Assembly (NCBI GenBank): GCA_030648155.1 | Contig: JAUSIK010000016.1 | Location: forward strand, 81,944-145,943 | Reading direction: 5' to 3' | DNA from: Nanobdellota archaeon | GTDB taxonomy: Archaea; Nanobdellota; Nanobdellia; Pacearchaeales; GW2011-AR1 | Length of the DNA stretch: 64,000 nt | Shown: piece after piece, positions 16,214 to 55,799 of the stretch | Layout: every line of letters starts with the position of its first letter | Position numbering within the stretch: the stretch's first letter is position 1 | The notes under the pieces: model-generated | The model's database searches: none | What the model was told of the DNA's origin: nothing | The model's input: the letters and a program-made list of their open reading frames with translations, nothing else | Translations under genes and position numbers: made by a program

Positions 16214-16226
16214 TGCGGGAGGGAGG
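16214..16226 (-). repeat. Duplicate of the tRNA-Leu 3' end (cctccctcccgca), distal copy
   Basis: Exact 13-nt match to the last 13 nt of tRNA-Leu(UAA) (comp. 16341-16329). Also identical to the 3' end of tRNA-Leu(CAA). Confidence 0.8.
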
Positions 16227-16239
16227 CTCACGAGATTAT

Positions 16240-16328
16240 GATCTCGGATCCGTCAAACTTTACAAAGTTTGAGGATTCGAACTTATGCACAGCATTTTGA
16301 ATCACCCATATAATCTAAAGATTATATA
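16240..16328 (-). repeat. 89-nt element E, copy 1 (directly 3' of tRNA-Leu(UAA))
   Basis: 84/89 identical to 37892-37980 on the other strand. Contains three hairpins (atataatc/gattatat, gattcaaa/ttcgaatc, caaactt/aagtttg). Confidence 0.8.
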
Positions 16329-16457
16329 TGCGGGAGGGAGGATTCGAACCTCCGAAGGCACTAAGCCACAAGATAACCTATATCTTGTTAAGCTACTTTC
16401 TCTAACGAGAAAGCGACATCTTAAGTCTTGCGCGTTTGACCACTTCGCTACCCCCGC
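16329..16457 (-). tRNA. tRNA-Leu(UAA) with a ~45-nt intron at the canonical 37/38 position (comp. ~16419-16375)
   Basis: Manual cloverleaf: acceptor GCGGGGG/CTCCCGC, anticodon stem CAAGA/TCTTG, loop CTTAAG|A, long variable arm, T-arm GGAGG-TTCGAATC-CCTCC, discriminator A. A TATA-like gctttaaaaatg lies ~30 nt upstream. Confidence 0.8.
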
Positions 16458-16509
16458 ATTAAAACTAGAGAAAACCAACATTTTTAAAGCTTAATGTTTG
16501 GGGAAAGAT

Positions 16510-16836
16510 ATGAGAAAAGATAACTTAAAAAAGAAATTTGAGAAGTTAGCTCTAAAATGGTATGAAGATACCTGTATTCATTCAAATCCTGAAATTATAA
16601 ATTCCCATCCTAATTGTGAGAAATTAATCAAAATGGGAGAACCAATTATCCCATTTATTTTAGAAGATATTAAGAATTCTAAATATGGGGATTGGGGTTA
16701 TATATTAAAAACAATAAGTAGAGAGGATCCTGTTCCTAGACATCACTATGGCTTTTATAATTCAATGAGGGATGATTGGCTAGCATGGGGAAAGAATAAA
16801 GGATACATTTCTTATACTGAAATACGAGTCAATTAA
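16510..16836 (+). CDS. Hypothetical protein
   Basis: ORF track frame (16498..16836, TTG). ATG 16510 fits the TATA-like motif at ~16469-16481 better. No recognisable motif. Confidence 0.5.
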   Translation: MRKDNLKKKFEKLALKWYEDTCIHSNPEIINSHPNCEKLIKMGEPIIPFILEDIKNSKYGDWGYILKTISREDPVPRHHYGFYNSMRDDWLAWGKNKGYISYTEIRVN

Positions 16837-16840
16837 GAAA

Positions 16841-17002
16841 TTAAACTTCAGCATCTATTTTTAGCAAGATTTCATTCGCTTGTAATGCTACTTGCTGGAT
16901 TATTTCTTGCTCACTAGCTCTTGGATTTTCTGTTTTGAACTTTAGGGCATGTGCTGCTCCTGAAATTATTGCCATTTTAAGCCTCTTTTCATCTTCTTTC
17001 AT
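16841..17002 (-). CDS. Possible small protein (53 aa)
   Basis: My translation: MKEDEKRLKMAIISGAAHALKFKTENPRASEQEIIQQVALQANEILLKIDAEV. It is below the ORF-track length cutoff and fills an otherwise empty gap. Confidence 0.3.
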   Translation of the reverse strand: MKEDEKRLKMAIISGAAHALKFKTENPRASEQEIIQQVALQANEILLKIDAEV

Positions 17003-17038
17003 AATTTTGTTAGATTAGCGATGCTTAAAAAGATTTAG

Positions 17039-17302
17039 TTAGTCAGTTGTTATATTGAAGTCGTTTAAAGAGACATTCTGCGAAAGAGTTGAATTAGTCA
17101 TATTGAGTGAAATATTTTGTGGAGATAGTGGGATAGATTTTTCTTTTTCATAATCTATGTTGAAGATAACATTTCCTGTTTTATATTCGAATCCTCCTAG
17201 AAATCTTATTTTAAAGTATATTAAGCCCGCAATAACGAACAAGGCCACAATTAAGAAGATAAATATAGCAAATATTATCCCCTTTTTACCTTTCATGGTC
17301 AT
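17039..17302 (-). CDS. Small single-pass membrane protein
   Basis: N-terminal TM segment GIIFAIFIFLIVALFVIAGLIYF. Confidence 0.5.
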   Translation of the reverse strand: MTMKGKKGIIFAIFIFLIVALFVIAGLIYFKIRFLGGFEYKTGNVIFNIDYEKEKSIPLSPQNISLNMTNSTLSQNVSLNDFNITTD

Positions 17303-17403
17303 CTGGAGAGAAGGAATTATATAAATCTTATGGGATTCTTAAATTAAAAGAGAATATAAAACTTTAAAAAGAAATATTAGCTTAGAATTCAATAAGAGGA
17401 TAT

Positions 17404-18231
17404 ATGGAAGAGGTTTTAAAAAAGCTTAAGACAGAGTTAAAAATTAGAGGTTTTTCACCTTTGACATTAAGAAATTATTCATTTTTTGTAGAAAAATTTC
17501 TGCTTAAGTCCAATAAAAATGAGAACGATCTTACACAAGATGATGCGAAAGCTTACCTAGGGGAGCTTTTTGATTCAAAATCGAAAAATACTATTATGCT
17601 TGCTGCTGCTTCTCTTAAATTTTTTTATACTGAAATATTAGGCAAAGAATTTTCGCAGATTAAAATGCCTAAAAAAGATAAAAAATTACCTGAAGTCTTA
17701 ACTAAAGAGGAAGTAAGAAAATTAATAGAAAGTGCAGATAATATAAAATCTAGATTAATTATCTCACTGCTTTATTCCAGCGGATTAAGGGTTTCTGAAC
17801 TTGTAAATTTAAAGAAGGATGATTTAAACTTGCAAGAGAAAATTGGCTGGGTTAGAAGAGGAAAGGGAGGGAAAGACAGACTCATTACATTGTCTGTAAA
17901 TTTGGCTGGAGAATTAAAAGATTATTTTGAAATGAAAGGAAAAGACAAAGTTTATGTTTTTTCCAAGGATAAACCGCTGACTACTAGAAATATTCAAAAG
18001 ATAATTAAAGGAACCAGGATTAGGGCAGGAATAAATAAGAAAGTTACACCGCATACACTACGGCATTCTTTTGCGACTCATTTGCTTGAGGCAGGAACAG
18101 ATATTAGATTTATTCAGAGCATGCTCGGGCATAGTAGTATTGCTACAACTCAAATTTACGCGCATGTTTCAACTGATGAAATAAAGAAAATTAAAAATCC
18201 TTTAGATGTGCTGGATAACGATTCAAAGTGA
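17404..18231 (+). CDS. xerA: Tyrosine recombinase, XerA/XerC/D-like
   Basis: SAM-like N-domain, then catalytic residues in GLRVSELVNL (R), HTLRHSFATHLL (HxxR) and GHSSIATTQIYAHV (H...Y). The 275-aa size is typical of archaeal XerA. Confidence 0.85.
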   Translation: MEEVLKKLKTELKIRGFSPLTLRNYSFFVEKFLLKSNKNENDLTQDDAKAYLGELFDSKSKNTIMLAAASLKFFYTEILGKEFSQIKMPKKDKKLPEVLTKEEVRKLIESADNIKSRLIISLLYSSGLRVSELVNLKKDDLNLQEKIGWVRRGKGGKDRLITLSVNLAGELKDYFEMKGKDKVYVFSKDKPLTTRNIQKIIKGTRIRAGINKKVTPHTLRHSFATHLLEAGTDIRFIQSMLGHSSIATTQIYAHVSTDEIKKIKNPLDVLDNDSK

Positions 18232-18352
18232 AAGAAAAAACAAAATGTATTCTTTAGAGGAGATTAGGTTTATCAGGTAAGGACATGAGAGAAGTTTTAG
18301 AGAAGATATACAAAGAAACTAATTGGTAAAATTAATATTTTAAAAGATAGAA

Positions 18353-18769
18353 CTATCTGAATGACTTCTGTCTCTTTGCTCTGGCTTTCGAATCTCCAGG
18401 CTTTCTAGTTTCTTTTCTTCTTGAATCTGGAACAATCATATTTCTATCATATTTAACGAAGGCTTTCTTTAAGACTTCTGAACCTGTAATGTTTAGAAGA
18501 GCTTTTGCAATTGCCAATCGTGCTGCCTGTATTTGGCCTTCTTTTCCACCGCCTGTAACATGAATATGGAAATCATACTGCAAATCATCGCCTAATTCAG
18601 ACTGATAGATTCTTAGAGGCTCTAGAAGTGCTAAACGATGGAACAAGGATAATTCCATATAGGATAAATAATTATAAAATATTTTTCCAGTTCCTTCTTT
18701 AACCTTTAGTTTTGCAACTGCGGTTTTTCTTTTTCCTGAAATTGTTGGCAAGTTTTTTTTAATTGTCAT
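18353..18769 (-). CDS. rps9: 30S ribosomal protein uS9
   Basis: C-terminal ...DSRRKETRKPGDSKARAKRQKSFR, and its position after uL13. Confidence 0.9.
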   Translation of the reverse strand: MTIKKNLPTISGKRKTAVAKLKVKEGTGKIFYNYLSYMELSLFHRLALLEPLRIYQSELGDDLQYDFHIHVTGGGKEGQIQAARLAIAKALLNITGSEVLKKAFVKYDRNMIVPDSRRKETRKPGDSKARAKRQKSFR

Positions 18770-19170
18770 ATTTCTTTAGATAAATTATTTAGCGAGATAG
18801 TTTTTACCTTAAATTCTTTTTCAAGAGTTAATTTTTTTGATTCTATAAATTCAGCAGGGGTGTCGTTGTAGCAAATTATTCTACCGAATGCATCTCTTCC
18901 TCTCCCTTCTTTGTAGCTAAGCATTCCTCTTATTGTTCTTTTTACTATTCTTTCTGGATTTTTAGGAAAGTGCGGGCCGTTTAGCGAAGATCCTCCCCTC
19001 ATTCTAGATTCCCTATAACTATCTATAACGCCTCTTTTTCTTCCAGAGACTACCGCATTATTGCAATTAACAACTACTACGGAATTTCCTAAAAGTGCTT
19101 TTTTAGCTGCGACACTGCACAATCTTCCTAGTGGTGCATTTGATGCGTCAATAATTATTTTTCCAGTCAT
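18766..19170 (-). CDS. rpl13: 50S ribosomal protein uL13
   Basis: IIDASNAPLGRLCSVAAKKALLGNSVVVVN pattern, in the eL18-uL13-uS9 order. Confidence 0.9.
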   Translation of the reverse strand: MTGKIIIDASNAPLGRLCSVAAKKALLGNSVVVVNCNNAVVSGRKRGVIDSYRESRMRGGSSLNGPHFPKNPERIVKRTIRGMLSYKEGRGRDAFGRIICYNDTPAEFIESKKLTLEKEFKVKTISLNNLSKEI

Positions 19171-19535
19171 CTTATTATTTTAATACCCTCCGCTTTCGGA
19201 TTAGTTTTTATTTCTTGGGCCAAATAGACAAAATCTGATTTTGACTCTTTTAATTTTTCCTTTGCTTGGACTGAAATAGCCAACGCGCAAATTTTTAGTT
19301 TCTTTGTTAAATTACCTTTGCTTAATACTTTCCCTGGAATAACTAACGTATCTCCTGCTTTTGATTCTTCGTTTATTCTAGATAAATTAACTGCTGAAAA
19401 CTGCCTCGTTGATGCAGATAATATTTGAGCAATTTTACTCCAATCAGAATTTTTTACTGCAAGCCTTATTGTCTCTGCTAACTCTGGGTTTGTTTTTTTT
19501 CTTAATCTTATTTTTAATTTGTTTTTTGATATCAT
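19167..19535 (-). CDS. rpl18e: 50S ribosomal protein eL18 (L18e)
   Basis: 122 aa. The operon position upstream of uL13 and the pattern ...VNLSRINE...GDTLVIPGKVLSKG are typical of L18e. Confidence 0.8.
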   Translation of the reverse strand: MISKNKLKIRLRKKTNPELAETIRLAVKNSDWSKIAQILSASTRQFSAVNLSRINEESKAGDTLVIPGKVLSKGNLTKKLKICALAISVQAKEKLKESKSDFVYLAQEIKTNPKAEGIKIIR

Positions 19536-19612
19536 AAAGGCATTGATTTAATGAAGGTATTTAAAACTATCTATGTAGAAAGTTTTTTATACTAAAGTGT
19601 GTATAAGTGTGT

Positions 19613-19846
19613 ATGGCAAAAAAGAAGACAAGGGTTAATATAAGTGTAGATAAAGAATTACTCGATAAAGCGAAAACTAAGCTTACACTCTTCGGAGGAA
19701 AATTAAGCACATTATTTAATGCTTTTCTTGCTGACTTTGTAGAAACTATGGGGAAGGATGCGGTGAAGGGATATAATATACTTGAGAAAAAAATGAATGA
19801 AATAGAACAAAGAGTAAAAAAATTTGAAGATAAATTCAAGAAATGA
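19613..19846 (+). CDS. Small ribbon-helix-helix-like protein (antitoxin/regulator-like)
   Basis: MAKKKTRVNISVDKELLDKAKTK is a typical RHH beta-strand start. The track start is GTG 19607. The competing minus ORF 19567..19881 is hydrophobic low-complexity. Confidence 0.5.
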   Translation: MAKKKTRVNISVDKELLDKAKTKLTLFGGKLSTLFNAFLADFVETMGKDAVKGYNILEKKMNEIEQRVKKFEDKFKK

Positions 19847-20050
19847 TTATTTCTTAGAGCGGAAAATAAGAACAACTGCAATTAAAATATAGAAAGCTAA
19901 AATAAAAGGATTGTGAAAAATAATTAAGGCAAGCAGAGGGGAATTTACAATATAATTAGAGCCTTGTTCGACATTTATCTTAATAAAATAGGATACTGCT
20001 AGAATTAAAATAATTGCAATTCCCAAATATAAACTTATTTTTCTATTCAT
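19847..20050 (-). CDS. Small membrane protein (2 TM)
   Basis: Hydrophobic 67-aa ORF. Confidence 0.4.
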   Translation of the reverse strand: MNRKISLYLGIAIILILAVSYFIKINVEQGSNYIVNSPLLALIIFHNPFILAFYILIAVVLIFRSKK

Positions 20051-20159
20051 ATTATTTTTAGAATTGTTAAATATATAAGTTTAATGAGACGAGCACTTTT
20101 ATGCAGAAATATTTATATAGTCTTCATCACAGAATCTTGTATAAATAAAAGAGAAAAAT

Positions 20160-20357
20160 ATGATGAAAAAATGTTCTTTTTGCAAACAACCGCTTGCTGA
20201 TGAACCAGCATTTGAGGTATGTAAAAAATGCGGGCATGCAATTTGGGGGGAAAAGATGTTTAATGCCATTAAAGAAAATATGGAGAAAGCAAAGCAGGTC
20301 GGAGATTTATATCAGGGTTCAGTCACAGAGGATCAGCATTTCAGGAAGGCTATTTAA
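20160..20357 (+). CDS. Small zinc-ribbon protein
   Basis: CSFCKQ...x13...CKKCGH four-Cys ribbon, 65 aa. Confidence 0.5.
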   Translation: MMKKCSFCKQPLADEPAFEVCKKCGHAIWGEKMFNAIKENMEKAKQVGDLYQGSVTEDQHFRKAI

Positions 20358-20397
20358 ATAGGATAATGTTTATAAACTCTATCTTTTAGTTAATTCT

Positions 20398-20658
20398 ATG
20401 TTAAAGCGAAAGTCACCAAGAACTAAAGGAAAGATATCTTTCAGTAAATACTTTCAGGCATTTAAAGAAGGAGATTCAGTAGCCATAGTAAGAGAGCTAG
20501 GAGTGCCTTTGGCTTATTCTAAAAGAATGCAGGGAAGAACTGGAAGAGTAATTGCTAAACAGGGCCAGTCATACCATGTTGAGATTAAAGATTTAAATAA
20601 AAAAAAGTATTATTTTATTAAGCCAATACATCTTAAAAAGATAGAGGAAATAAAATGA
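20398..20658 (+). CDS. rpl21e: 50S ribosomal protein eL21 (L21e)
   Basis: KGDSVAIV-type SH3 core (FKEGDSVAIVRE...RMQGRTGRVI). It begins the conserved archaeal L21e-RpoF-DUF655 gene string. Confidence 0.85.
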   Translation: MLKRKSPRTKGKISFSKYFQAFKEGDSVAIVRELGVPLAYSKRMQGRTGRVIAKQGQSYHVEIKDLNKKKYYFIKPIHLKKIEEIK

Positions 20659-20954
20659 TACTAGGAAAGAAGCCTTTAACATTAGCAGACGTTGGAGAAT
20701 ATGTTCAAAAAGGAGAAACTAAGGAAGCAGTCTTGGAATATTTAAAAAAGTTTGGGAAGGTTTCAAAAGATAAAGCTGACAAATTAAAGGAAGCTATTTC
20801 TGGACTGAACAATCCTAAAATAAAAGATGAAAGCATTGTTAAAATAATAGATTTTATACCGAAAGACCAGGAAGATCTAAATAAAATATTCTTAGAAAAT
20901 GGTCTAAATGAAGAGGAAGTTTTAGCTGTCCTCGCAATTTTGAAGGGCAATTGA
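20655..20954 (+). CDS. rpoF: RNA polymerase subunit Rpo4/RpoF
   Basis: Size (99 aa), helical pattern, and the conserved position between L21e and DUF655. Confidence 0.6.
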   Translation: MILGKKPLTLADVGEYVQKGETKEAVLEYLKKFGKVSKDKADKLKEAISGLNNPKIKDESIVKIIDFIPKDQEDLNKIFLENGLNEEEVLAVLAILKGN

Positions 20955-21496
20955 AAATGATCGAAAAAGACCAATATGCAATAGTATTAGATTATCTACC
21001 TTATGGGTATCCCATGAACGGAAAACCAATTCCAATAGCTCAAGCTATCGGAGAAAATACTTTAGTTTTACTTGAATTGATTCCTAGAAGAGGAACTGTA
21101 ATTGAGCAAAAAGAAAAGGTTTATATAGGCCCGGATAAAAGAGATAAGATACATTACATAGGGGGGAGACTCCCTTTTGATAAAGTCACAGAGACTGCGA
21201 AGATCCAACTGCAGGAATACATTTCAGGAGTAGTTGCGGAGCAGGAAAAGAAATATATAGATTTCTTTAACAATGCCCAAGCAATAAATACAAGACTACA
21301 CCAATTTGAACTTCTTCCAGGATTTGGACAAAAACATACGCAAGAGTTAATTAAGGCCAGGGAAGAGAAACCTTTTGAGTCCTTTGAGGACATAAAGAAA
21401 AGGGTTCATAACATACCTGACCCTAAGAAAGCAATTGAGCGCAGAATTTATGATGAACTTTCTCAAAAGCAAAGGTTCAACCTATTCGTAAAATAA
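20951..21496 (+). CDS. DUF655/COG1491 predicted RNA-binding protein (OB + HhH)
   Basis: YAIVLDYLPYGYP...LLELIPRRG N-terminus, ...QFELLPGFGQKHTQELIKAREEKPFESFEDIKKRV HhH region, and conserved gene order. Confidence 0.7.
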   Translation: MKMIEKDQYAIVLDYLPYGYPMNGKPIPIAQAIGENTLVLLELIPRRGTVIEQKEKVYIGPDKRDKIHYIGGRLPFDKVTETAKIQLQEYISGVVAEQEKKYIDFFNNAQAINTRLHQFELLPGFGQKHTQELIKAREEKPFESFEDIKKRVHNIPDPKKAIERRIYDELSQKQRFNLFVK

Positions 21497-21497
21497 A

Positions 21498-22004
21498 ATG
21501 GCAGAAGAACAAAAACCAGTAAAGAGAAATCCGCATCAGGAAGTGGAGTCAGAAACACTAGTTAGAATACTTGGATATGATATACCTGGATCTAAAAATC
21601 TATACTTAGGTTTAACTTATATCAAAGGTGTTTCTTGGGCTTTGTCTCATGCTATATGCATTAAATTAAATCTTGATAAAACAAAAAAAATAGTAGAGCT
21701 TAGTAAAGATGATATTCATAAAATTGAAAGTTTTATGAGAGAGCTTCCAATTCCAGAATTTTTGAAAAATAGAAGGTTTGACCCTGAAACTGGAGAAACT
21801 AAACATTTTTATGGAGCTGATCTTGATATGAAAAAAGAGTTTGATATTAAAAGATTAATTAAAATGAAAAGCTACAAGGGAATAAGGCATGCAACAGGAC
21901 AGCCTGTTAGAGGGCAGAAAACTAGATCCCACTTCAGAAATAGAAAGAATAAGAAAACTACTGGATTAAAGAGAGAAAAGAAGAAAGAGGTTGCTGCAAA
22001 ATGA
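21498..22004 (+). CDS. rps13: 30S ribosomal protein uS13
   Basis: LVRILGYDIPGSK...YKGIRHATGQPVRGQKTRSH. Confidence 0.9.
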   Translation: MAEEQKPVKRNPHQEVESETLVRILGYDIPGSKNLYLGLTYIKGVSWALSHAICIKLNLDKTKKIVELSKDDIHKIESFMRELPIPEFLKNRRFDPETGETKHFYGADLDMKKEFDIKRLIKMKSYKGIRHATGQPVRGQKTRSHFRNRKNKKTTGLKREKKKEVAAK

Positions 22005-22507
22005 TAAGGAAAAGAAAATTATATCAAAGACCAATGAAACTCTATCAGAAAGATAGAATCGAAGAGGAAAATGTCCTTGTAAAAAGATACGGTTTAAAAA
22101 GCAAGAGAGAAATATGGAAAACTCTTGCTAAAATAAATTACTTTAGAAAGAGAGCTAAAGATCTTGCTAAATCAAGCGGTGAAGAGCAGGAAGTGTTTTT
22201 TAATTATCTAAAAAGTTTAGGACTAGAAATAAAGTCAATAGCAGATATATTAGACCTGCAAATAGAAGACTTACTTAAAAGAAGATTATCTAGCGTGGTC
22301 GTAAGCAAGGCATTAGCTACCACTCCAAAGCAGGCGAGACAGATGATAGCTCATAAAAAAATAATTGTCGGAAAAAATGTAATCGACGCCCCTAGTTATA
22401 TTGTCCCTATAAATCTTGAATCTGAAATAAAAATAAAAAAGAAAAACAAAATAAAAAAAGAAGAAGTGAATGCTGAAAAAGAAGCACCTGTGGAGGTTAG
22501 CGTATAA
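22001..22507 (+). CDS. rps4: 30S ribosomal protein uS4
   Basis: S4 domain RRLSSVVVSKALATTPKQARQMIAHKKIIVGKNVIDAPSYIV, within the uS13-uS4-uS11 order. Confidence 0.9.
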   Translation: MIRKRKLYQRPMKLYQKDRIEEENVLVKRYGLKSKREIWKTLAKINYFRKRAKDLAKSSGEEQEVFFNYLKSLGLEIKSIADILDLQIEDLLKRRLSSVVVSKALATTPKQARQMIAHKKIIVGKNVIDAPSYIVPINLESEIKIKKKNKIKKEEVNAEKEAPVEVSV

Positions 22508-22962
22508 TGGAAAGTGCAGTTGAAGAAAAAATAGTTGAAAAAGAAGCAACTGAAGAGCAGAAAGAAGATTTAAAGAAAAAGGTAAAGGAAGAAAGAGTTG
22601 GTATAGCCTATGTTTACAGTTCGAGAAATAATACTATTATTCATGTAACTGATCTAGTTGGAAATACTCTTTCAAGAATCAGTGGAGGAATGGTTACTAA
22701 ACATTCTAGACTTAAATCTAATCCGACTATTGCTATGTTTGTCGCTAAGAAAGCTGCTGAAAGACCTAGAGATTTAGGAATTACAAGTCTTTACATAAGA
22801 ATGAGGGCAGAAACTGGAAGTACTGGACATGGTCCTGGAGCTCATGCGGCGGTTAAGACTCTTGGAAAAGAAGGGTTTAGAATAATTAGTGTTTTAGATA
22901 CCACTAAAGTTGCTCGTGGAGGGCCTAAAAAGAAAGGAGGACGAAGAGGCAGAAGAGTGTAA
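22507..22962 (+). CDS. rps11: 30S ribosomal protein uS11 (with ~30-aa acidic N-terminal extension)
   Basis: GIAYVYSSRNNTIIHVTD...GPGAHAAVKTLGKEGFRIISVLDTT. Confidence 0.9.
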   Translation: MESAVEEKIVEKEATEEQKEDLKKKVKEERVGIAYVYSSRNNTIIHVTDLVGNTLSRISGGMVTKHSRLKSNPTIAMFVAKKAAERPRDLGITSLYIRMRAETGSTGHGPGAHAAVKTLGKEGFRIISVLDTTKVARGGPKKKGGRRGRRV

Positions 22963-22993
22963 GATTTAAAAACGCACTTAACAATAAATCAAC

Positions 22994-23689
22994 ATGACAA
23001 TCGTTCAAAACACCCCAGAAAAAATTGTAATAAGAATGGAGGCTAATGAGCCTTTAGCAAATGCCATAAGGAGGAGTGTAACTGAAGTCCCTACTCTGGC
23101 AATTGAAGAAGTTGAGGTTTTTAAAAATGATTCTGCGCTTTATGATGAAGTTTTAGTTCATAGATTAGGACTAGTTCCTTTGAAAATGGATAAAGGAATG
23201 AGCGAAAAGACAAAAATAGAATTTAAATTAGTTAAAAAAGGACCTGGAATTGTTTATGCTGAAGATCTTTCAGGAAATGGTGAGCCGGTGTTTGGAAAAA
23301 TTCCTCTTACAATACTTGGGGAAGAAAGCAAAATTGAATTAGTTGCCACAGCTGGACTTGGAAAAGCAATCCAACATGCTAAGTATCTTCCAGGACTGTG
23401 TTACTATAGACACTTACTTGAAATAAATTCATCTTCTAAAATTGACGGCCTTATTGAAAAGTCTAAAGGACTAATGAAAGCTGAAAAGAAAGGCGGAAAG
23501 TGGATTTGTGATTTGAATGAGGCAGTAGTTGAAGAAATTCAAAATATTGATAAGAATGCTGTAAAAGATTCTTCTGAAATATTGTTTGTAATTGAATCTT
23601 TTGGAAACATGCCGGCCAAAGATATTTTGATTAAGGCCATTGAGGCATTAACTGATAATTTAGATGAATTTGAGAAACAATTCAAATAG
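22994..23689 (+). CDS. rpoD: RNA polymerase subunit Rpo3/RpoD
   Basis: LANAIRRSVTEVPTLAIEEVEVFKNDSALYDEVLVHRLGLVPL. It follows uS11 as in most archaea. Confidence 0.85.
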   Translation: MTIVQNTPEKIVIRMEANEPLANAIRRSVTEVPTLAIEEVEVFKNDSALYDEVLVHRLGLVPLKMDKGMSEKTKIEFKLVKKGPGIVYAEDLSGNGEPVFGKIPLTILGEESKIELVATAGLGKAIQHAKYLPGLCYYRHLLEINSSSKIDGLIEKSKGLMKAEKKGGKWICDLNEAVVEEIQNIDKNAVKDSSEILFVIESFGNMPAKDILIKAIEALTDNLDEFEKQFK

Positions 23690-23716
23690 TGTTATTTTTA
23701 TAAAGTAGTGACAATC

Positions 23717-23731
23717 GGAAGATTTATATAG
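23717..23731 (+). promoter_or_regulatory. BRE/TATA-like promoter motif (ggaagatttatatag)
   Basis: Consensus motif 21 nt upstream of ATG 23752. Confidence 0.45.
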
Positions 23732-23751
23732 GTATTTTTTATGAATTTTAT

Positions 23752-24228
23752 ATGTTAAATAGATTATTAGAAAAAATAAGAAAGTTATCCATTCTAGGAA
23801 TAGTAAGTGCTGGGTACGGGGTGGCTTTATATGAATCTGAGTCTGATAAATACAATATTGCTGAAGCTATACTAAAATCAAATAATTCAGAATTACCCCA
23901 AATTGAAAGAGAATCAATGAAATTTGAACCATTTTTACATTTAGGAAATATTGAAAAAATAGGTAATGGAAACAACTTTGGTTATATGAATGATGATTTA
24001 AATCTTGATTTAGTAAGTGTGAAAAATAATCGCCTAATTGTTAATCAATATTACGGCGATAATTTTATTGAGAGGGAAGTAAAATTAAATGTTAAAGGGA
24101 TTCCTACTAATTATAGTGTTTCTGATAAATGTAAAATCATTGTAACTGACTTTAACAATGATGGATTAAATGATATTATTGTCAGAGATCCTGATGGAAA
24201 ATTTTCTTCATTGTTCAGGATTAAGTAA
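23752..24228 (+). CDS. Hypothetical membrane-anchored protein with an FG-GAP/VCBS-like C-terminal repeat
   Basis: N-terminal TM segment and TDFNNDGLNDIIVRDPDG near the C-terminus. Confidence 0.5.
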   Translation: MLNRLLEKIRKLSILGIVSAGYGVALYESESDKYNIAEAILKSNNSELPQIERESMKFEPFLHLGNIEKIGNGNNFGYMNDDLNLDLVSVKNNRLIVNQYYGDNFIEREVKLNVKGIPTNYSVSDKCKIIVTDFNNDGLNDIIVRDPDGKFSSLFRIK

Positions 24229-24234
24229 TTTTTT

Positions 24235-24397
24235 ATAAAGAAATTCTCTAAAATTTCTAATACTCGTGAGAAATCTCTAATATTTATGCAGGAGTTTGTC
24301 TTGTCGATTTCTCCCGGTTCTCACAAAACCCCTCAGGTTTTGTGATTTTCATTTCTGGCCGATGCAGAGCATCGGGATATTAAACCCAGAAATGAAA
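24235..24397 (+). repeat. Bipartite intergenic repeat, copy 1 (conserved 5' module + variable core + 51-nt nested palindrome 24347-24397)
   Basis: The 5' module ataaagaaattctctaaaatttc and the 3' module tttcatttctgg-ccgatgc-aga-gcatcgg-gatattaaac-ccagaaatgaaa recur at 40602-40734. Possible structured sRNA or MITE-like element. Confidence 0.6.
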
Positions 24398-24438
24398 TAA
24401 GTAAACTTATAAACGTAATTCTACTGGGATTTTTATTC

Positions 24439-24522
24439 GCGGAGATGCCGGAGCGGTCAAACGGACGCGATTAAGGCTCGCGTGGCTTAGTGCCTTCGAA
24501 GGTTCGAATCCTTCTCTCCGCA
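24439..24522 (+). tRNA. tRNA-Leu with anticodon AAG (as folded by hand)
   Basis: Acceptor GCGGAGA/TCTCCGC, anticodon stem CGCGA/TCGCG, loop TTAAGGC, long variable arm TGGCTTAGTGCCTTC, T-arm GAAGG-TTCGAATC-CTTC, discriminator A. A TATA-like aaacttataaacg lies ~25-35 nt upstream. Confidence 0.75.
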
Positions 24523-24597
24523 TTTCATGATCAAAGATCATGTCAAATCTCAAGGATTTGAAAGGTTGCTAGATACAAAACCCGCTGGAGGTTTTGA

Positions 24598-24617
24598 TTC
24601 GGATACTTCTCTCCGCA
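24598..24617 (+). repeat. Degenerate duplicate of the tRNA-Leu(AAG) T-loop/3' end
   Basis: ttcggatacttctctccgca versus the tRNA's ttcgaatccttctctccgca (18/20). The last 12 nt (24606-24617) are exact. Confidence 0.75.
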
Positions 24618-24676
24618 TAACCTGTTGGAAAACAGGTTTAATCCAAAGGATTAATTGTGCAAAAGAAAAAATGCTG

Positions 24677-25057
24677 TTATTTTCTATACTCTAATGAAAT
24701 TAAATAAACAAGAAATGCAAAAATTATACCTATTGAATCTAAAATTACGTCGCTAAATGCTGAAGAACGACCAGGAGTAAAATATTGATGTATTTCGTCT
24801 ATTATTGCATATGTTAGCGCTAAAATTATTCCTAGTGAAATTAATTCTTTGTTTTTTCCCTTTGTGAGTGAGATAAATAAAAATATGGAAAGTAGAAAAA
24901 ATATTGAGATGTGATAAACTAGTGCATTTAATCCTATTACTTTCCCAATAGTTGAAGATTCTTCTCCTGTGAGAGAGGAAAAATAAAATATTAGTATTAC
25001 TATAATGGATGTAACTAACCAAGATATTTTTGAGTTTTTTTCTAACCAGGAAATCAT
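24677..25057 (-). CDS. VanZ-like membrane protein
   Basis: Four TM segments and DEIHQYFTPGRSSAFSDVILDSIG, the VanZ family signature region. Confidence 0.7.
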   Translation of the reverse strand: MISWLEKNSKISWLVTSIIVILIFYFSSLTGEESSTIGKVIGLNALVYHISIFFLLSIFLFISLTKGKNKELISLGIILALTYAIIDEIHQYFTPGRSSAFSDVILDSIGIIFAFLVYLISLEYRK

Positions 25058-32762: not shown

Positions 32763-33101
32763 CTAAACAAGAGAAATATTTTTCATTGATTCTTTTATGT
32801 TTTTTAGGTCTTTGGTACATGTATTCCATATTCTCTTTATACTTGCTTCAAAATAAGAATGAATTATAAAATCTCTAAATTGGGCCATCTCAAACCAGGG
32901 AACATGCTTATTTTTTTCCTTTAAAGACCTGGGAATATTTCTACTTGCCTCACCAATAATCTCCAATCGCCTTATTACTGCATCTTGCAATTTTTTATCT
33001 TTGTTGAACTGCTCTTCTGAAATGCCTTTAATGTATTCTTCTATTAACTGTATGCATTCATTAATATCGTTAAGATATAACTTGTAATCCCTTTTCATCA
33101 T
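32763..33101 (-). CDS. HEPN-domain (DUF86) toxin, HepT-like
   Basis: Rx4-6H-type region RRLEIIGEASRNIP...FRDFIIHSYF. The start overlaps the MNT gene stop by 4 nt. Confidence 0.8.
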   Translation of the reverse strand: MMKRDYKLYLNDINECIQLIEEYIKGISEEQFNKDKKLQDAVIRRLEIIGEASRNIPRSLKEKNKHVPWFEMAQFRDFIIHSYFEASIKRIWNTCTKDLKNIKESMKNISLV

Positions 33102-33391
33102 AAAATGGAAATTTCATCACCCAATATTATCTCTTTTAATTCAGGTCTTATTGTTTCATATTCTACCAGATCAACTTTTTTGTTTATTGCATCTTGCAAA
33201 ATTTTTTTAAGCCTTATTGTTTCTATTAAACCGAATTCGTCATTTATTTTTACCAAAACATCAATATCGCTATTCTCCCTTTGCTCTCCTCTCGCGTAGC
33301 TTCCAAAAATGCCTGCTTTTTTAACTCCATTATTCTTTAATAGAGGACTTATTATTTTTTTTATCTCCTCTATCTCAAGTTTTTTTTCCAT
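33098..33391 (-). CDS. Minimal nucleotidyltransferase antitoxin, MntA-like
   Basis: GIFGSYARGEQRENSDIDVLV (GSx10DxD motif). Confidence 0.85.
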   Translation of the reverse strand: MEKKLEIEEIKKIISPLLKNNGVKKAGIFGSYARGEQRENSDIDVLVKINDEFGLIETIRLKKILQDAINKKVDLVEYETIRPELKEIILGDEISIL

Positions 33392-37663: not shown

Positions 37664-37747
37664 GCGGGGGTAGCGAAGTGGTCAAACGCGACAGCCTCAA
37701 GAGCTGTTTCCTTAGTGGATTCGGAGGTTCGAATCCTCCCTCCCGCA
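37664..37747 (+). tRNA. tRNA-Leu(CAA), intron-less
   Basis: Acceptor GCGGGGG/CTCCCGC, anticodon stem ACAGC/GCTGT, loop CTCAAGA, long variable arm, T-arm GGAGG-TTCGAATC-CCTCC. The first 27 nt and last 28 nt are identical to tRNA-Leu(UAA). Confidence 0.85.
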
Positions 37748-37876
37748 TTTATCCCATCAAAGATGGGATTCAATTCTGAAGGAATTGTGCATACGCTAGA
37801 CTACTGTTTTTATAACAGGTAATAGTTTCTTTGAACTCATAGAAGGTTTCTTTACAAAGAAAGCTTGTATTTCTGG

Positions 37877-37891
37877 ATCCTCCCTCCCGCA
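37877..37891 (+). repeat. Exact 15-nt duplicate of the tRNA-Leu(CAA) 3' end (atcctccctcccgca)
   Basis: Identical to 37733-37747. Confidence 0.85.
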
Positions 37892-37980
37892 TATATAATC
37901 TTTAGATTATATGGATGATTCGAAATGCTGTGTATAAGTTCGAATACTCAAACTTTGTAAAGTTTGATGGATCCGAGATC
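37892..37980 (+). repeat. 89-nt element E, copy 2
   Basis: 84/89 identical to the reverse complement of 16240-16328. Confidence 0.8.
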
Positions 37981-38151
37981 TTGTGTTTCTGCGACTCACC
38001 ATGGAAATAATTACCATGGATATTGCGCTGATGAGTCTGAAAGACAACCAAGAAAATTAATTGAAATACAGACTAGTCTTATAAAGTCTTATAGAATTCT
38101 TTAGATGATATTGGATAATTTTTTACTCTCTGCTATTTTTTTGAATAGATA

Positions 38152-38161
38152 CCTTTAAATC
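38152..38161 (+). promoter_or_regulatory. TATA-like box (cctttaaatc) upstream of tRNA-Arg
   Basis: Ends 26 nt before the tRNA 5' end. Confidence 0.5.
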
Positions 38162-38186
38162 GTGTTAAAAAGTTAAATTAAGTGAT

Positions 38187-38263
38187 GGCTCCGTAGCTCA
38201 GCCTGGATTAAGAGCACCAGGGTCCTAACCTGGGGGTCGCAGGTTCAAATCCTGTCGGGGCCG
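38187..38263 (+). tRNA. tRNA-Arg(CCU)
   Basis: Acceptor GGCTCCG/CGGGGCC, D-arm GCTC...GAGC, anticodon stem CCAGG/CCTGG, loop GTCCTAA, T-arm GCAGG-TTCAAAT-CCTGT. Confidence 0.85.
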
Positions 38264-40601: not shown

Positions 40602-40734
40602 ATAAAGAAATTCTCTAAAGTTTCCTACCTAACCAGGGCAGAGAGGCGCGGTATTCGGAAATTTTTGACTCGAGAATTTCTAATTTCATTTCTGGCCGAT
40701 GCAGAGCATCGAGGTATTAAACCCAGAAATGAAA
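40602..40734 (+). repeat. Bipartite intergenic repeat, copy 2 (51-nt nested palindrome at 40684-40734)
   Basis: Same 5' module (ataaagaaattctctaaagtttc) and 3' palindrome as 24235-24397. The core differs and is GC-rich (accagggcagagaggcgcgg). Confidence 0.6.
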
Positions 40735-40770
40735 TCAAAAGATTTAAATTGATATTTAATTGATAGTTTT

Positions 40771-54878: not shown

Positions 54879-55799
54879 TTATTTTACTAAAAACCTCTTG
54901 CAGATCTCAATAAGTCTAGGCTGAATCTTTTGTTTGAATTCTTCAAACTCTTCCTCGTCATAAGAAGCTATTGCTAACTCTTCTACCTTCTCCTCACTTT
55001 CAAAGAACTTACCATTTTGAAGAAGATTAAGTTTTTCGCTTATCAATTTAGCAAAATCTATTTTAATAATGGATGAATTCTTTATTTTCTCAACAATCTC
55101 ATTTAAGTCTGCTTTAAGAGAGCCCTTTATCAAAAAAAGGTCGAATAAATCTCTTTCTTGAAGTTTATTTCTTGTCAGTACCGCCCTATACTTTTCTAGA
55201 GTTATTTCTTTTAGTGAATAGCTTAAAACATTGAAATTTTTTATGTCAAGCCCTAGCGTAAATAATAGCTCTTTAGAGTCAAATAGATCGGTTATTGCTT
55301 TGATTGAAACTTTTTCCGGAGGGCTATTCATTTTCTCAATAAAGTTTATTTCTACTTTTATAAACTTGTTTTCTGAATAATATATCTTGAATGTGTAAAC
55401 TGTTCTTCCGCTTAACATTTTACAATATCTCTTATTGCCCCTATCTGCGCTAAAATCAAGTCCAAGAATCTCTGCAACTTCTTTTAGCTTAGGAACAAAA
55501 TAATCAAGAAAAGCTTTAATTTTTCTTTCTCTCGCATTTCTTGTTAATTCTCTTAAACTACTCGAATCTTTATACACAAAATCCAAATCTTCAGAAAACC
55601 TGTGATATTTTAAGTAATTTCTTGAGAGTAATGTTCCGCCTTTGAAAATAAGTTCTTTTCCAAGATCTTTTTTCTCAAACTCTACTAAGATTAAGGTTAA
55701 AAGCAAATCTTTCTCTAAGATGTCTTTATTATGCTGGAGATTAAGATTGAGTTTCAATTGTTCTATATATCTGCTTATGTTGATTTCTTTCCAACCCAT
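54879..55799 (-). CDS. AbiEii/AbiGii-family nucleotidyltransferase toxin (DUF1814)
   Basis: FKGGTLLSRNYLKYHRFSEDLDF motif. Confidence 0.8.
   Translation of the reverse strand: MGWKEINISRYIEQLKLNLNLQHNKDILEKDLLLTLILVEFEKKDLGKELIFKGGTLLSRNYLKYHRFSEDLDFVYKDSSSLRELTRNARERKIKAFLDYFVPKLKEVAEILGLDFSADRGNKRYCKMLSGRTVYTFKIYYSENKFIKVEINFIEKMNSPPEKVSIKAITDLFDSKELLFTLGLDIKNFNVLSYSLKEITLEKYRAVLTRNKLQERDLFDLFLIKGSLKADLNEIVEKIKNSSIIKIDFAKLISEKLNLLQNGKFFESEEKVEELAIASYDEEEFEEFKQKIQPRLIEICKRFLVK

What the first reader, a model, noticed from the sequence alone, without database searches (positions are those of the whole stretch)
37748..37980. tRNA-Leu(CAA) is followed by a structured 129-nt spacer, an exact 15-nt copy of its own 3' end, then an 89-nt element shared with another tRNA-Leu locus
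tRNA-Leu(CAA) (37664-37747) ends in atcctccctcccgca. After 129 nt (37748-37876), the same 15 nt recur exactly at 37877-37891. The spacer is not random. It opens with ttt plus two abutting hairpins: 37751-37769 (atcccatc/aaa/gatgggat) and 37771-37787 (caattc/tgaag/gaattg). Both have positional counterparts behind tRNA-Leu(AAG), at 24526-24561. Immediately after the duplicated 3' end comes an 89-nt element (37892-37980). That element is 84/89 identical to the sequence lying directly 3' of tRNA-Leu(UAA) on the other strand (16240-16328). Displaced tRNA 3' ends are the classic scar of site-specific integration into tRNA genes (attL/attR). Here, however, the inserts are only ~90-130 nt, carry no ORF, and occur at all three Leu tRNAs. 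Candidate explanations are miniature non-autonomous integrative elements targeting tRNA-Leu, remnants of serial integrations, mobile non-canonical tRNA introns, or functional structured trailers.
Basis: partly seen in the sequence, partly recalled or inferred. Interest (0 to 1): 0.7.

Follow-up and report, generated by a model that had tools for sequence, protein, structure and literature searches.

The report
Mini cassette arrays behind tRNA-Leu genes
Behind every leucine tRNA gene of this small-genome (DPANN) archaeon sit one or two short, gene-less, hairpin-rich DNA inserts, each bounded by a copy of the tRNA's last 12-15 bases; this is the footprint of repeated site-specific insertion, but the inserts are far smaller than any integrating element described so far.

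Summary
All three tRNA-Leu genes in the window (UAA, AAG, CAA) are followed by 83-129-nt ORF-less cassettes, and an exact copy of that tRNA's own last 12-15 nt follows the cassette. tRNA-Arg and tRNA-Ser have nothing like it. Related Woesearchaeota-like genomes give empty sites. In three of them tRNA-Leu(CAA) abuts tRNA-Arg(CCT), where the window has 439 extra nt. One has a bare tRNA-Leu(GAG) where the window has a clean 158-nt insert. Orthologous loci in three relatives carry different combinations of the same cassette families (A, A', B), always in the same orientation. Every cassette opens with a perfect hairpin whose sequence varies while its pairing is kept, and internal stems covary. The 8-kb segment between the inverted UAA and AAG genes is flipped between species. 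No cassette encodes anything. The window's only tyrosine recombinase is housekeeping XerA, and no helper element was found. Best reading: arrays of miniature, non-autonomous, att-flanked cassettes specific for the tRNA-Leu 3' end, reshuffled by recombination between tRNA-Leu loci. A host-selected structured-RNA role is not excluded. The intron reading is rejected.

The parts
37664..37747 (+). tRNA-Leu(CAA); its last 15 nt (37733-37747) are core copy 1
   Evidence: Rfam RF00005, 60.8 bits; ARAGORN; forms a normal cloverleaf with the first core in the fold of 37664-37995
37748..37876 (+). Cassette A (129 nt, no ORF): TTT, hairpin 1, hairpin 2, the invariant block TGTGCATACGCTAGAC, two further hairpins, and the invariant end TTGTATTTCTGG
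   Evidence: Sequence. Homologues lie directly behind tRNA-Leu(UAA) in L009/L034 and in L022/L033, and behind tRNA-Leu(AAG) in L033 and L034. Hairpins. Between-species identity 75-90%
37877..37891 (+). Core copy 2: an exact 15-nt repeat of the tRNA-Leu(CAA) 3' end
37892..37980 (+). Cassette B, 3'-truncated copy with no distal core
   Evidence: 94.4% identical to 16328-16240; covariance-model hit at 37892-37993, 103.5 bits; alignment
37981..38186 (+). Further inserted DNA of unknown origin. It carries a TATA-like box (CCTTTAAATC, 38152-38161) about 35 nt upstream of tRNA-Arg
   Evidence: Absent from relatives in which tRNA-Leu(CAA) abuts tRNA-Arg; no similarity to any held sequence; the promoter reading is inferred from the same box and spacing upstream of the other tRNA genes
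38187..38263 (+). tRNA-Arg(CCT), separated from tRNA-Leu(CAA) by the 439-nt insert
   Evidence: adjacent to tRNA-Leu(CAA) with 0-3 nt between in L002, L003 and L004
16329..16457 (-). tRNA-Leu(UAA) with a canonical intron; its last 13 nt are core copy 1
   Evidence: Rfam, 49.5 bits; ARAGORN with introns allowed
16227..16328 (-). Cassette B, complete (102 nt, four hairpins, ends in TGAG)
   Evidence: covariance-model hit, 117.3 bits; stem covariation
16214..16226 (-). Core copy 2 of the UAA locus (13 nt, exact), abutting the conserved promoter flank of the 287-aa ORF
   Evidence: the same core-to-flank junction is seen in L033 and, decayed, in L035
24439..24522 (+). tRNA-Leu(AAG); its last 12 nt are core copy 1
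24523..24605 (+). Cassette A' (83 nt), a shorter relative of A; its 3' part imitates the T-arm (GGAGGTTTTGATTCGGATA)
   Evidence: a homologue lies behind tRNA-Leu(UAA) in L022/L033 with 91.5% identity in the body
24606..24617 (+). Core copy 2 of the AAG locus (12 nt exact; 24598-24617 matches the tRNA's last 20 nt at 18/20)
24618..24680 (+). Cassette A'': two abutting hairpins plus ATTGTGCA, the start of an A-type cassette; truncated, no distal core
   Evidence: it closes the clean 158-nt insertion (24523-24680) seen against the bare tRNA-Leu(GAG) locus of L035
17404..18231 (+). XerA, the only tyrosine recombinase in the window. It is context only; no evidence links it to the cassettes
   Evidence: NCBIfam recomb_XerA_Arch, 266 bits against a cut-off of 220; only one Phage_integrase hit among 82 ORFs; 913 close homologues, so it is a conserved housekeeping gene

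Best explanation
The tRNA-Leu genes of this DPANN archaeon and its close relatives are landing pads for very small (about 80-130 nt), ORF-less, hairpin-rich cassettes of at least three related families (A, A', B). Each cassette was inserted by site-specific recombination within the last 12-20 nt of the tRNA gene. The incoming DNA supplies a new copy of the tRNA end, so the tRNA stays intact, and the previous end is pushed downstream as a 'core' copy. Repeated insertion builds co-oriented tandem arrays of the form tRNA-core-cassette-core-cassette-core. The cassettes encode nothing, so a recombinase must act in trans. The most likely source is a tyrosine integrase of a plasmid or virus that uses the same site, and the cassettes may be carried along by accretion with such an element. 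Arrays are then reshuffled among tRNA-Leu loci by gene conversion and crossover between the inverted tRNA-Leu genes. Shown here: insertion relative to empty sites, restriction to tRNA-Leu, sharing of families between loci and species, conserved hairpin architecture, and the inversion. Inferred: the type of recombinase, the form of the mobile intermediate, and why the hairpins are kept.
For: Core repeats are far above chance and confined to tRNA-Leu: 11 of 29 Leu entries against 0 of 16 other tRNA genes. Empty sites exist. tRNA-Leu(CAA) abuts tRNA-Arg(CCT) with 0-3 nt between in L002, L003 and L004, where the window has 439 nt. L035 has a bare tRNA-Leu(GAG) where the window has an exact 158-nt insert beginning at the tRNA end. 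The orthologous UAA locus (the same XerA-side synteny) carries B in the window, A+B in L009/L034, A+A' in L033, and B-variant plus a 245-nt piece in L035. The same family sits behind different isoacceptors (A behind CAA, UAA and AAG; A' behind AAG and UAA), and the flanking cores always match the local tRNA. The length of tRNA homology is specific to the family (A 15 nt, B 13 nt, A' about 20 nt plus a T-arm imitation). That is expected of different attP sites and not of a fixed staggered cut. Where a core has decayed it is almost always a distal one; most cores bounding the tRNA-proximal cassette are exact, as expected if the newest insertion lies next to the tRNA. In the organism of L033, CAA has a different 3' end and no cassette. 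The cassettes occur nowhere else in 208 kb of held sequence. The 8-kb segment between the inverted UAA and AAG genes is flipped in L033/L034 relative to the window and L035. The L033 arrays are identical but for 1 nt from the tRNA 3' part through A to hairpin 1.
Against: No integrase, attP-bearing plasmid or virus, or full-length element was found: eight viral-collection scans, one metagenome scan and searches of plasmid and phage records. The window encodes only XerA. A double-stranded circle of 100-145 bp is an awkward substrate for a tyrosine recombinase. The terminal cassettes of the window's CAA and AAG arrays lack a distal core. B lies next to the same flank in all four species, has diverged no faster than coding DNA, and shows compensatory stem changes. 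That is easier to explain by selection on a function than by a dead scar. No strain-level presence/absence polymorphism was seen.
Confidence: 0.55

Rival explanations
1. The cassettes are host-selected structured RNA modules, co-transcribed with tRNA-Leu as its 3' trailer. They might insulate, terminate or stabilise the transcript, or act as small RNAs released by tRNA 3' processing. Their origin by insertion would then be secondary.
For: All 13 cassettes start with a perfect 7-9-bp hairpin 1-4 nt after the discriminator base, with 8 different stem sequences. B stems 2-4 have 5 pairs changed on both sides (0 of 500 shuffles reach this) and 87.7% of cells paired, against at most 55% in slid controls. 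Invariant single-stranded blocks exist (TGTGCATACGCTAGAC; TTGTATTTCTGG). Between-species identity is 65-91.5%, against 72-74% for alignable coding DNA. The sense strand folds better in 9 of 12 cassettes and has more G-U pairs, 34 against 20. The cassettes fold independently of the cloverleaf, z = -3.5. B stays next to the 287-aa-ORF flank in four species.
Against: Close relatives do without them: empty CAA, GAG and AAG sites. Cassette content at orthologous loci turns over (A', A', B, none at the M50 flank). Distal cores and terminal cassettes decay or are truncated. There is no Rfam match. No role for the core copy in RNA is apparent, since nothing in a cassette pairs with it. The sense-strand bias is weak.
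Confidence: 0.2
2. The cassettes are inert remnants: the joined left and right att-proximal ends of once large integrated plasmids or viruses whose interiors were deleted. They spread between tRNA-Leu loci only by homologous recombination and are not mobile themselves.
For: Displaced tRNA 3' fragments are the standard residue of archaeal integrations (reviewed in PMC8371274 and PMC9897764). Gene conversion and crossover between arrays is evident in L033. Arrays move with their flanks in the inversion.
Against: The same 100-130-nt units, with the same boundaries, recur in four species and behind three isoacceptors. Hairpins are kept by compensatory change. The 13-15-nt distal cores are very short for homologous recombination. 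No integrase fragments are present.
Confidence: 0.12
3. The cassettes are MITE-like transposons inserted by an enzyme that makes a 12-15-nt staggered cut at the tRNA-Leu 3' end, so the 'cores' are target-site duplications, as with casposons.
For: Casposons target tRNA-Leu 3' ends, make 14-bp duplications and form tandem arrays separated by a shared duplication (PMC4779613). Both cores always match the local tRNA.
Against: The cassettes have no terminal inverted repeats (sequence). Repeat length differs by family (13, 15, about 20 nt), and A' carries an imperfect T-arm beyond the exact repeat. Orientation is strictly fixed, whereas casposons occur in both orientations. No Cas1 or transposase is in the window.
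Confidence: 0.07
4. The insert between the two cores is a non-canonical (bulge-helix-bulge) tRNA intron in the T-arm/acceptor region.
For: Removing core plus cassette would give the same mature tRNA. The UAA gene has a canonical intron, so the splicing machinery is present.
Against: The upstream copy already completes a canonical tRNA with a proper T-loop. Splicing to the A-side copy would give GGAT instead of GAAT in the T-loop. The predicted fold shows only local hairpins, with no helix joining the junctions. Arrays of two or three units and truncated units do not fit introns.
Confidence: 0.02

Closest known systems
tRNA-gene-targeting integrative elements of archaea (tyrosine integrases of the SSV, pNOB8, pTN3 and pT26-2 types; reviewed in PMC8371274)
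   Same: Insertion in the 3' part of a tRNA gene; the tRNA is regenerated; the old 3' end is displaced as a direct repeat; tRNA-Leu is a known target; integrated copies promote chromosomal inversions.
   Different: Those elements are kilobases long and encode their integrase. These are 80-130 nt with no ORF, and no integrase or helper was found. They also share a conserved multi-hairpin architecture.
CIMEs (cis-mobilizable elements) and tandem accretion at att sites in streptococcal ICE/IME systems (PMC5704250)
   Same: att-flanked units that have lost (or never had) recombination genes, sit in tandem at the 3' end of a tRNA gene, and could be moved together with an autonomous element using the same site.
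   Different: CIMEs are decayed kilobase-scale islands of bacteria. Here the units are two orders of magnitude smaller, are archaeal, form recognisable conserved families, and no partner element has been seen.
Casposon tandem arrays at tRNA-Leu in Methanosarcina (PMC4779613)
   Same: A tRNA-Leu 3' end target, flanking repeats of about 14 nt, and tandem units separated by one shared repeat.
   Different: Casposons have terminal inverted repeats and Cas1 and PolB genes, and occur in both orientations. None of this applies here.
Integron cassette arrays
   Same: Co-oriented arrays of small units added at one fixed site. The units are recognised by fold rather than sequence (hairpins conserved, sequence free), and the newest unit probably lies nearest the anchor.
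   Different: There is no single long attC hairpin with R and L boxes, no GTTRRRY core, no adjacent intI with attI, and the cassettes carry no genes.
Inversions between tRNA-Leu genes and integrated elements in Thermococcales (Cossu et al. 2017, as summarised in PMC8371274)
   Same: A chromosomal segment bounded by inverted tRNA-Leu genes is flipped between related genomes.
   Different: Here the recombining repeats are the tRNA 3' parts plus the cassette arrays (about 230 nt, identical in L033). No pTN3-like integrase is known in these organisms.

Membership tests
tRNA-targeting integrative element (tyrosine-integrase type) | Insert flanked by direct repeats of the tRNA 3' part, with an intact tRNA regenerated | tested here: met
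   Exact 12-15-nt repeats at all three tRNA-Leu genes; the tRNAs score normally and fold as cloverleaves
tRNA-targeting integrative element (tyrosine-integrase type) | Empty target site in related genomes | tested here: met
   L002, L003 and L004 for the CAA/Arg junction; L035 for the AAG/GAG locus
tRNA-targeting integrative element (tyrosine-integrase type) | Element encodes its own integrase | tested here: not met
   The cassettes have no ORF; XerA is the only Phage_integrase protein among 82 window ORFs
tRNA-targeting integrative element (tyrosine-integrase type) | A circular or free form carrying attP exists | tested here: inconclusive
   Eight viral scans, one metagenome scan and plasmid and phage BLAST found none, but the collections cover DPANN mobile elements poorly
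CIME / att-flanked non-autonomous element | Retains attL and attR but lacks recombination and transfer genes | tested here: met
   Cores on both sides of A (window CAA), B (window UAA) and A' (window AAG), with no ORFs
CIME / att-flanked non-autonomous element | Found in accretion with, or mobilised by, an autonomous element using the same att site | tested here: not met
   No autonomous partner in any of the 11 occupied loci examined
Casposon / casposon-derived MITE | Terminal inverted repeats | tested here: not met
   The ends of A, A' and B are not inverted repeats of each other (sequences)
Casposon / casposon-derived MITE | Fixed-length target-site duplication (14-15 bp) | tested here: not met
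   Repeat length depends on the family: B 13, A 15-17, A' about 20 plus an imperfect T-arm
Archaeal bulge-helix-bulge tRNA intron | A BHB motif brings the two splice sites together, and the tRNA is incomplete without splicing | tested here: not met
   The tRNA is complete without splicing; the minimum-free-energy and centroid folds show only local hairpins in the cassettes
Integron cassette array | attC-type single imperfect hairpin with R and L boxes, and an adjacent intI/attI | tested here: not met
   Each cassette has three to four short separate hairpins. There is no GTTRRRY core. The tyrosine recombinase near the UAA locus is the XerA equivalog, and the CAA and AAG loci have none nearby
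CRISPR array | Unique spacers between repeats, with cas genes or a leader | tested here: not met
   The 'spacers' are conserved families shared between species; the repeats are only 12-15 nt and equal the tRNA end
Known RNA family (Rfam 15) | Match at the gathering score | tested here: not met
   Only the tRNAs and 5S rRNA match in the window. At E up to 5 there were only two sub-threshold snoRNA-like hits, both in 37981-38186 and none in A or B

The most novel reading that the evidence does not exclude
The cassettes are a new kind of mobile unit that moves as a folded single strand (DNA or RNA) and not as a double-stranded circle. One version is an integron-like, structure-recognised cassette system anchored at the tRNA-Leu 3' end. 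Another is a set of scaffold-plus-guide RNAs whose 3' 13-20 nt (equal to the tRNA-Leu end) direct a recombinase or transposase, encoded elsewhere, back to tRNA-Leu genes. Either version would explain three things: the units are too small for ordinary integrase circles, pairing rather than sequence is conserved, and each unit ends with a copy of the target.
Probability: 0.12. Interest if true: 0.85.

Novelty: new variant of a known kind. Interest (0 to 1): 0.55.

Why it matters
tRNA 3' ends are the classic docking sites of archaeal and bacterial integrating elements, but the elements known are kilobases long and carry their own integrase. Here the same footprint is produced by units of about 100 nt with no gene. 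They form families with a conserved fold, are stacked in arrays behind every tRNA-Leu gene of a roughly 1-Mb DPANN genome, and bound a chromosomal segment that flips between species. If they are mobile, they are the smallest att-flanked elements I am aware of, the integrase world's counterpart of MITEs, and they point to an unseen helper plasmid or virus in DPANN archaea, whose mobile elements are poorly known. If they are kept for a function, they are a new structured RNA family tied to tRNA-Leu expression. Either way they cause assembly breaks and rearrangements at tRNA-Leu genes in these genomes. Metagenome reads and small-RNA data can decide between the two readings.

Tried and rejected
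1. Chance repeat: rejected by the shuffles.
2. Helper element or attP: none found. Exact-pattern scans of the viral collection used the B 23-mer, two B/A internal blocks, the A' end, the A end plus core, and three tRNA-Leu 3' ends. They gave nothing or irrelevant hits: L031 and L032 lie inside a coding repeat, and L036 is a high-GC phage tRNA cluster. BLAST against plasmid and phage records gave no match.
3. Metagenome scan with the B 23-mer: one hit, L009, which turned out to be the orthologous UAA locus of a relative.
4. Recombinase or transposase in the window: only XerA. The large unannotated ORFs are a helicase, sugar enzymes, AbiEii and the like.
5. XerA/dif-like reading of hairpin 1: dropped. 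The hairpin sequences differ between cassettes, their 3-5-nt loops are too short for a Xer central region, and the CAA and AAG loci are not near xerA.
6. Rfam: no family matches A or B. The CUGAUGA...GAAA string at about 38030 is not a hammerhead, and the C/D-box-like hits are far below threshold.
7. IS200/IS605-type (PATE) reading: the left and right hairpins of a cassette are unrelated, and the long tRNA homology is not explained.
8. Extra copies elsewhere: BLAST and a covariance model of B found only the tRNA-Leu-linked copies.
9. One further XerA-linked locus (L037-L044) proved non-syntenic; its tRNA-Leu(AAG) is bare.
10. The MAFFT alignment of A misplaces hairpin 1 of one sequence, so hairpin 1 was tabulated by direct hairpin search instead.
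Full report
**What is in the window.** The window is low-GC (about 31%). Its closest public relatives are MAGs labelled Woesearchaeota, Nanoarchaeota or Pacearchaeota, so it is a DPANN archaeon. The source is a 307,606-bp NCBI MAG contig. It holds five tRNA genes:
- tRNA-Leu(UAA), 16457-16329 on the minus strand, with a canonical intron
- tRNA-Leu(AAG), 24439-24522
- tRNA-Leu(CAA), 37664-37747
- tRNA-Arg(CCT), 38187-38263
- tRNA-Ser(UGA), 45365-45284 on the minus strand

**Checking the observation.**
- The 15-mer ATCCTCCCTCCCGCA ends the CAA gene and recurs at 37877-37891, after a 129-nt spacer.
- The two abutting hairpins at the start of the spacer exist and have counterparts behind tRNA-Leu(AAG).
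- The 89 nt after the second copy are 94.4% identical to the sequence directly 3' of tRNA-Leu(UAA).

The pattern is more regular than reported.
- In the UAA locus the shared element (B) runs 102 nt and is closed by a second exact CCTCCCTCCCGCA (16226-16214).
- In the AAG locus an 83-nt element (A') is closed by an exact copy of that tRNA's own, different, last 12 nt: CTTCTCTCCGCA, 18/20 over 20 nt.
- The 13-mer occurs four times against 0.26 expected (0 of 100 shuffles reach four). The 12-mer occurs twice against 0.15 expected.
- tRNA-Arg and tRNA-Ser have no such copy.
- Over all DNA fetched, 11 of 29 tRNA-Leu entries and 0 of 16 other tRNA genes have a downstream copy of their last 12 nt.

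**The inserts are insertions.**
- The PfkB gene just upstream of tRNA-Leu(CAA) brought in orthologous loci. In three relatives (L002, L003, L004; PfkB 68-73% identical) tRNA-Leu(CAA) is followed within 0-3 nt by tRNA-Arg(CCT). The window has 439 nt between them: A (129), core (15), B (89, truncated), and 206 nt of unassigned DNA.
- In two other relatives the same junction holds a LAGLIDADG-like ORF (L010/L011) or ACT-domain ORFs (L013-L016), without core copies. This junction is therefore a general insertion hotspot.
- In each occupied case a TATA-like box sits about 35 nt before tRNA-Arg, at 38152-38161 in the window. The Leu-Arg pair leaves no room for a promoter between the genes, so I infer it was a dicistron that insertions split.
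- For the AAG locus, L035 (XerA 85% identical) has a bare tRNA-Leu(GAG). The alignment shows a clean 158-nt insertion in the window (24523-24680), starting exactly at the tRNA end.

**The same cassettes occur in other species, in other combinations.** One metagenome hit (L009) and loci fetched through XerA homologues gave the orthologous UAA locus in three relatives. The synteny is XerA, small ORFs, tRNA-Leu(UAA).

| Locus | Array, read from the tRNA outward |
|---|---|
| window UAA | core-B-core |
| L009/L026/L034 UAA | core-A-core-B-core (1 mismatch in the last core) |
| L022/L033 UAA | core-A-core-A'-core (1 mismatch in the last core) |
| L020/L035 UAA | core-B variant-decayed core-245 nt-decayed core-flank |
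| L033 AAG | core-A-core-B variant-core |
| L034 AAG | core-A-decayed core-B-decayed core |
| L035 GAG | empty |

Several regularities follow.
- Cassettes are always co-oriented with the tRNA.
- A is always the cassette nearest the tRNA.
- Most cores bounding the proximal cassette are exact, and decayed cores are mainly distal.
- The cores always match the local tRNA, even when the same family sits behind tRNAs with different ends.
- The extent of tRNA homology is family-specific: B 13 nt, A 15-17 nt, A' about 20 nt preceded by an imperfect T-arm.
- In the organism of L033, tRNA-Leu(CAA) has a different 3' end and no cassette (L013).
- The arrays recur in independent assemblies (L022, L023, L024, L033; L009, L026, L034).
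- BLAST and a covariance model of B find no copies away from tRNA-Leu genes.

**Anatomy.** No cassette has an ORF. All 13 begin, 1-4 nt after the discriminator base, with a perfect 7-9-bp hairpin with a 3-5-nt loop. Eight different stem sequences are used.
- **A:** TTT, hairpin 1, hairpin 2, the invariant TGTGCATACGCTAGAC, hairpin 3, TTTGAACT(C/A)ATAGAA, hairpin 4, and the invariant TTGTATTTCTGG next to the core.
- **B:** hairpin 1, a hairpin whose loop holds TGTGCA, a hairpin with a TGTR loop, a 6-bp hairpin, and TGAG next to the core.
- **Covariation:** for B stems 2-4, 87.7% of cells pair, against at most 55% when partners are slid. Five pairs change on both sides, which 0 of 500 shuffles reach.
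- **Fold strength:** single-sequence fold z-scores are modest, -0.6 to -2.7. The whole tRNA-A-B transcript gives z = -3.5, with the cloverleaf using the first core and the cassettes folding locally.
- **Strand:** the sense strand folds somewhat better than the antisense strand (9 of 12 cassettes; G-U pairs 34 against 20). This is weak evidence for an RNA or sense-strand structure.
- **Conservation:** between-species identity is 75-90% for A, 65-85% for B and 91.5% for the A' body. The alignable, mostly coding, DNA of the neighbouring 8 kb is 72-74% identical.

**Rearrangement.** tRNA-Leu(UAA) and tRNA-Leu(AAG) are inverted relative to each other, 8 kb apart. In the window and L035 the TatD/287-aa-ORF flank lies beyond UAA and the VanZ/M50/PfkB-like flank lies beyond AAG/GAG. 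In L033 and L034 the flanks are exchanged and inverted. The distal cassettes stay with their flanks: B with the 287-aa-ORF promoter flank, A' with the M50 flank. In L033 the two arrays are identical but for 1 nt from the tRNA 3' part through A and the core to hairpin 1. That marks a recent crossover or conversion tract and explains chimeric cassettes, such as a B body carrying the A' hairpin 1.

**Who does it.**
- The only tyrosine recombinase among 82 window ORFs is the XerA equivalog. It is a highly conserved housekeeping gene (913 homologues at E below 1e-80) that happens to lie 1 kb from the UAA gene. The CAA and AAG loci have no recombinase nearby.
- The other large ORFs are ordinary.
- No scan found a plasmid, virus or island carrying the cassettes or the cores.

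**Interpretation.** The topology is the established signature of site-specific integration into tRNA genes (PMC8371274, PMC9897764): an intact tRNA, a displaced 3' end, empty sites, co-oriented tandem units sharing one core, family-specific homology blocks, and target specificity that follows the tRNA 3' sequence. The lack of any gene makes the units non-autonomous. The nearest concept is the CIME with accretion (PMC5704250), shrunk a hundredfold. A target-site-duplication mechanism like that of casposons, which also use tRNA-Leu and form tandem arrays (PMC4779613), fits less well. There are no terminal inverted repeats, the repeat length is not fixed, and the orientation is fixed. The intron reading fails. 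What integration alone does not explain is the conserved fold and the slow divergence. Either only fold-competent copies propagate, which hints at a single-stranded intermediate because 100-145-bp duplex circles are poor substrates, or the host keeps them as trailer RNA modules. I put about 0.55 on non-autonomous integrative cassettes, 0.2 on a host-selected RNA role and 0.12 on inert remnants spread by recombination, with the rest on the other readings. Origin by insertion and later function are not mutually exclusive.

**Novelty and limits.** My literature searches found no description of gene-less att-flanked units of about 100 nt, or of such arrays in DPANN archaea. That is absence in a limited library, not proof.

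Noticed in passing
window 16214-24617 (compare L033, L034, L035): The 8-kb segment bounded by the inverted tRNA-Leu(UAA) and tRNA-Leu(AAG) genes holds XerA, ribosomal protein genes and RNA polymerase subunit genes. It is inverted relative to its flanks between related species, with the breakpoints at the tRNA-Leu 3' ends or arrays.
   Followed up: yes
window 24347-24409 and 40684-40746: A 63-nt repeat (89% identical) forms a long nested palindrome (TTTCATTTCTGG...CCGATGC-AGA-GCATCGG...CCCAGAAATGAAA). One copy lies just upstream of the tRNA-Leu(AAG) promoter and the other in the intergenic region before the trhO-like gene.
   Followed up: no
L010/L011 4164-5153; L013-L016 (for example L013 1978-2375): In two relatives the tRNA-Leu(CAA)/tRNA-Arg(CCT) junction holds a free-standing LAGLIDADG-like ORF whose 3' end overlaps the tRNA-Arg start, or split ACT-domain ORFs. 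Neither has core copies. Each insert has a TATA-like box about 35 nt before tRNA-Arg.
   Followed up: partly
L005 4380-4560: In a Pacearchaeota MAG, tRNA-Leu(AAG) is followed after 9 nt by a displaced 41-nt 3' half of a different tRNA-Leu, nearly identical (40/41) to the 3' half of the L006 gene. Two long hairpins (13-14 bp) come next. The tRNA-Leu 3' flank may therefore be a recombination hotspot more widely in DPANN.
   Followed up: no
window 24439-24522; L035 17583-17666: The orthologous Leu gene has anticodon AAG (A34) in the window, L033 and L034 but GAG in L035. As far as I know, A34 in a Leu tRNA is unusual for archaea.
   Followed up: no
L001 (end), L012 (end), L019 (end): Three short-read (Logan) contigs stop at or inside tRNA-Leu(CAA), two of them in its T-arm, consistent with assembly breaks at sequence shared between tRNA-Leu loci.
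   Followed up: no
L035 8470-8710 (minus strand): A 245-nt non-coding piece lies between two decayed cores (CCTACTCCCCGCA and CCTTTACCCGCA) behind the B-variant cassette. It is a larger third cassette with no similarity to A, A' or B.
   Followed up: partly
window 32763-33391 and 54879-55799: Toxin-antitoxin-type genes are present: a HepT-like/nucleotidyltransferase pair and an AbiEii-family protein. PemK, MazE and PIN genes flank the arrays in relatives (L034).
   Followed up: no
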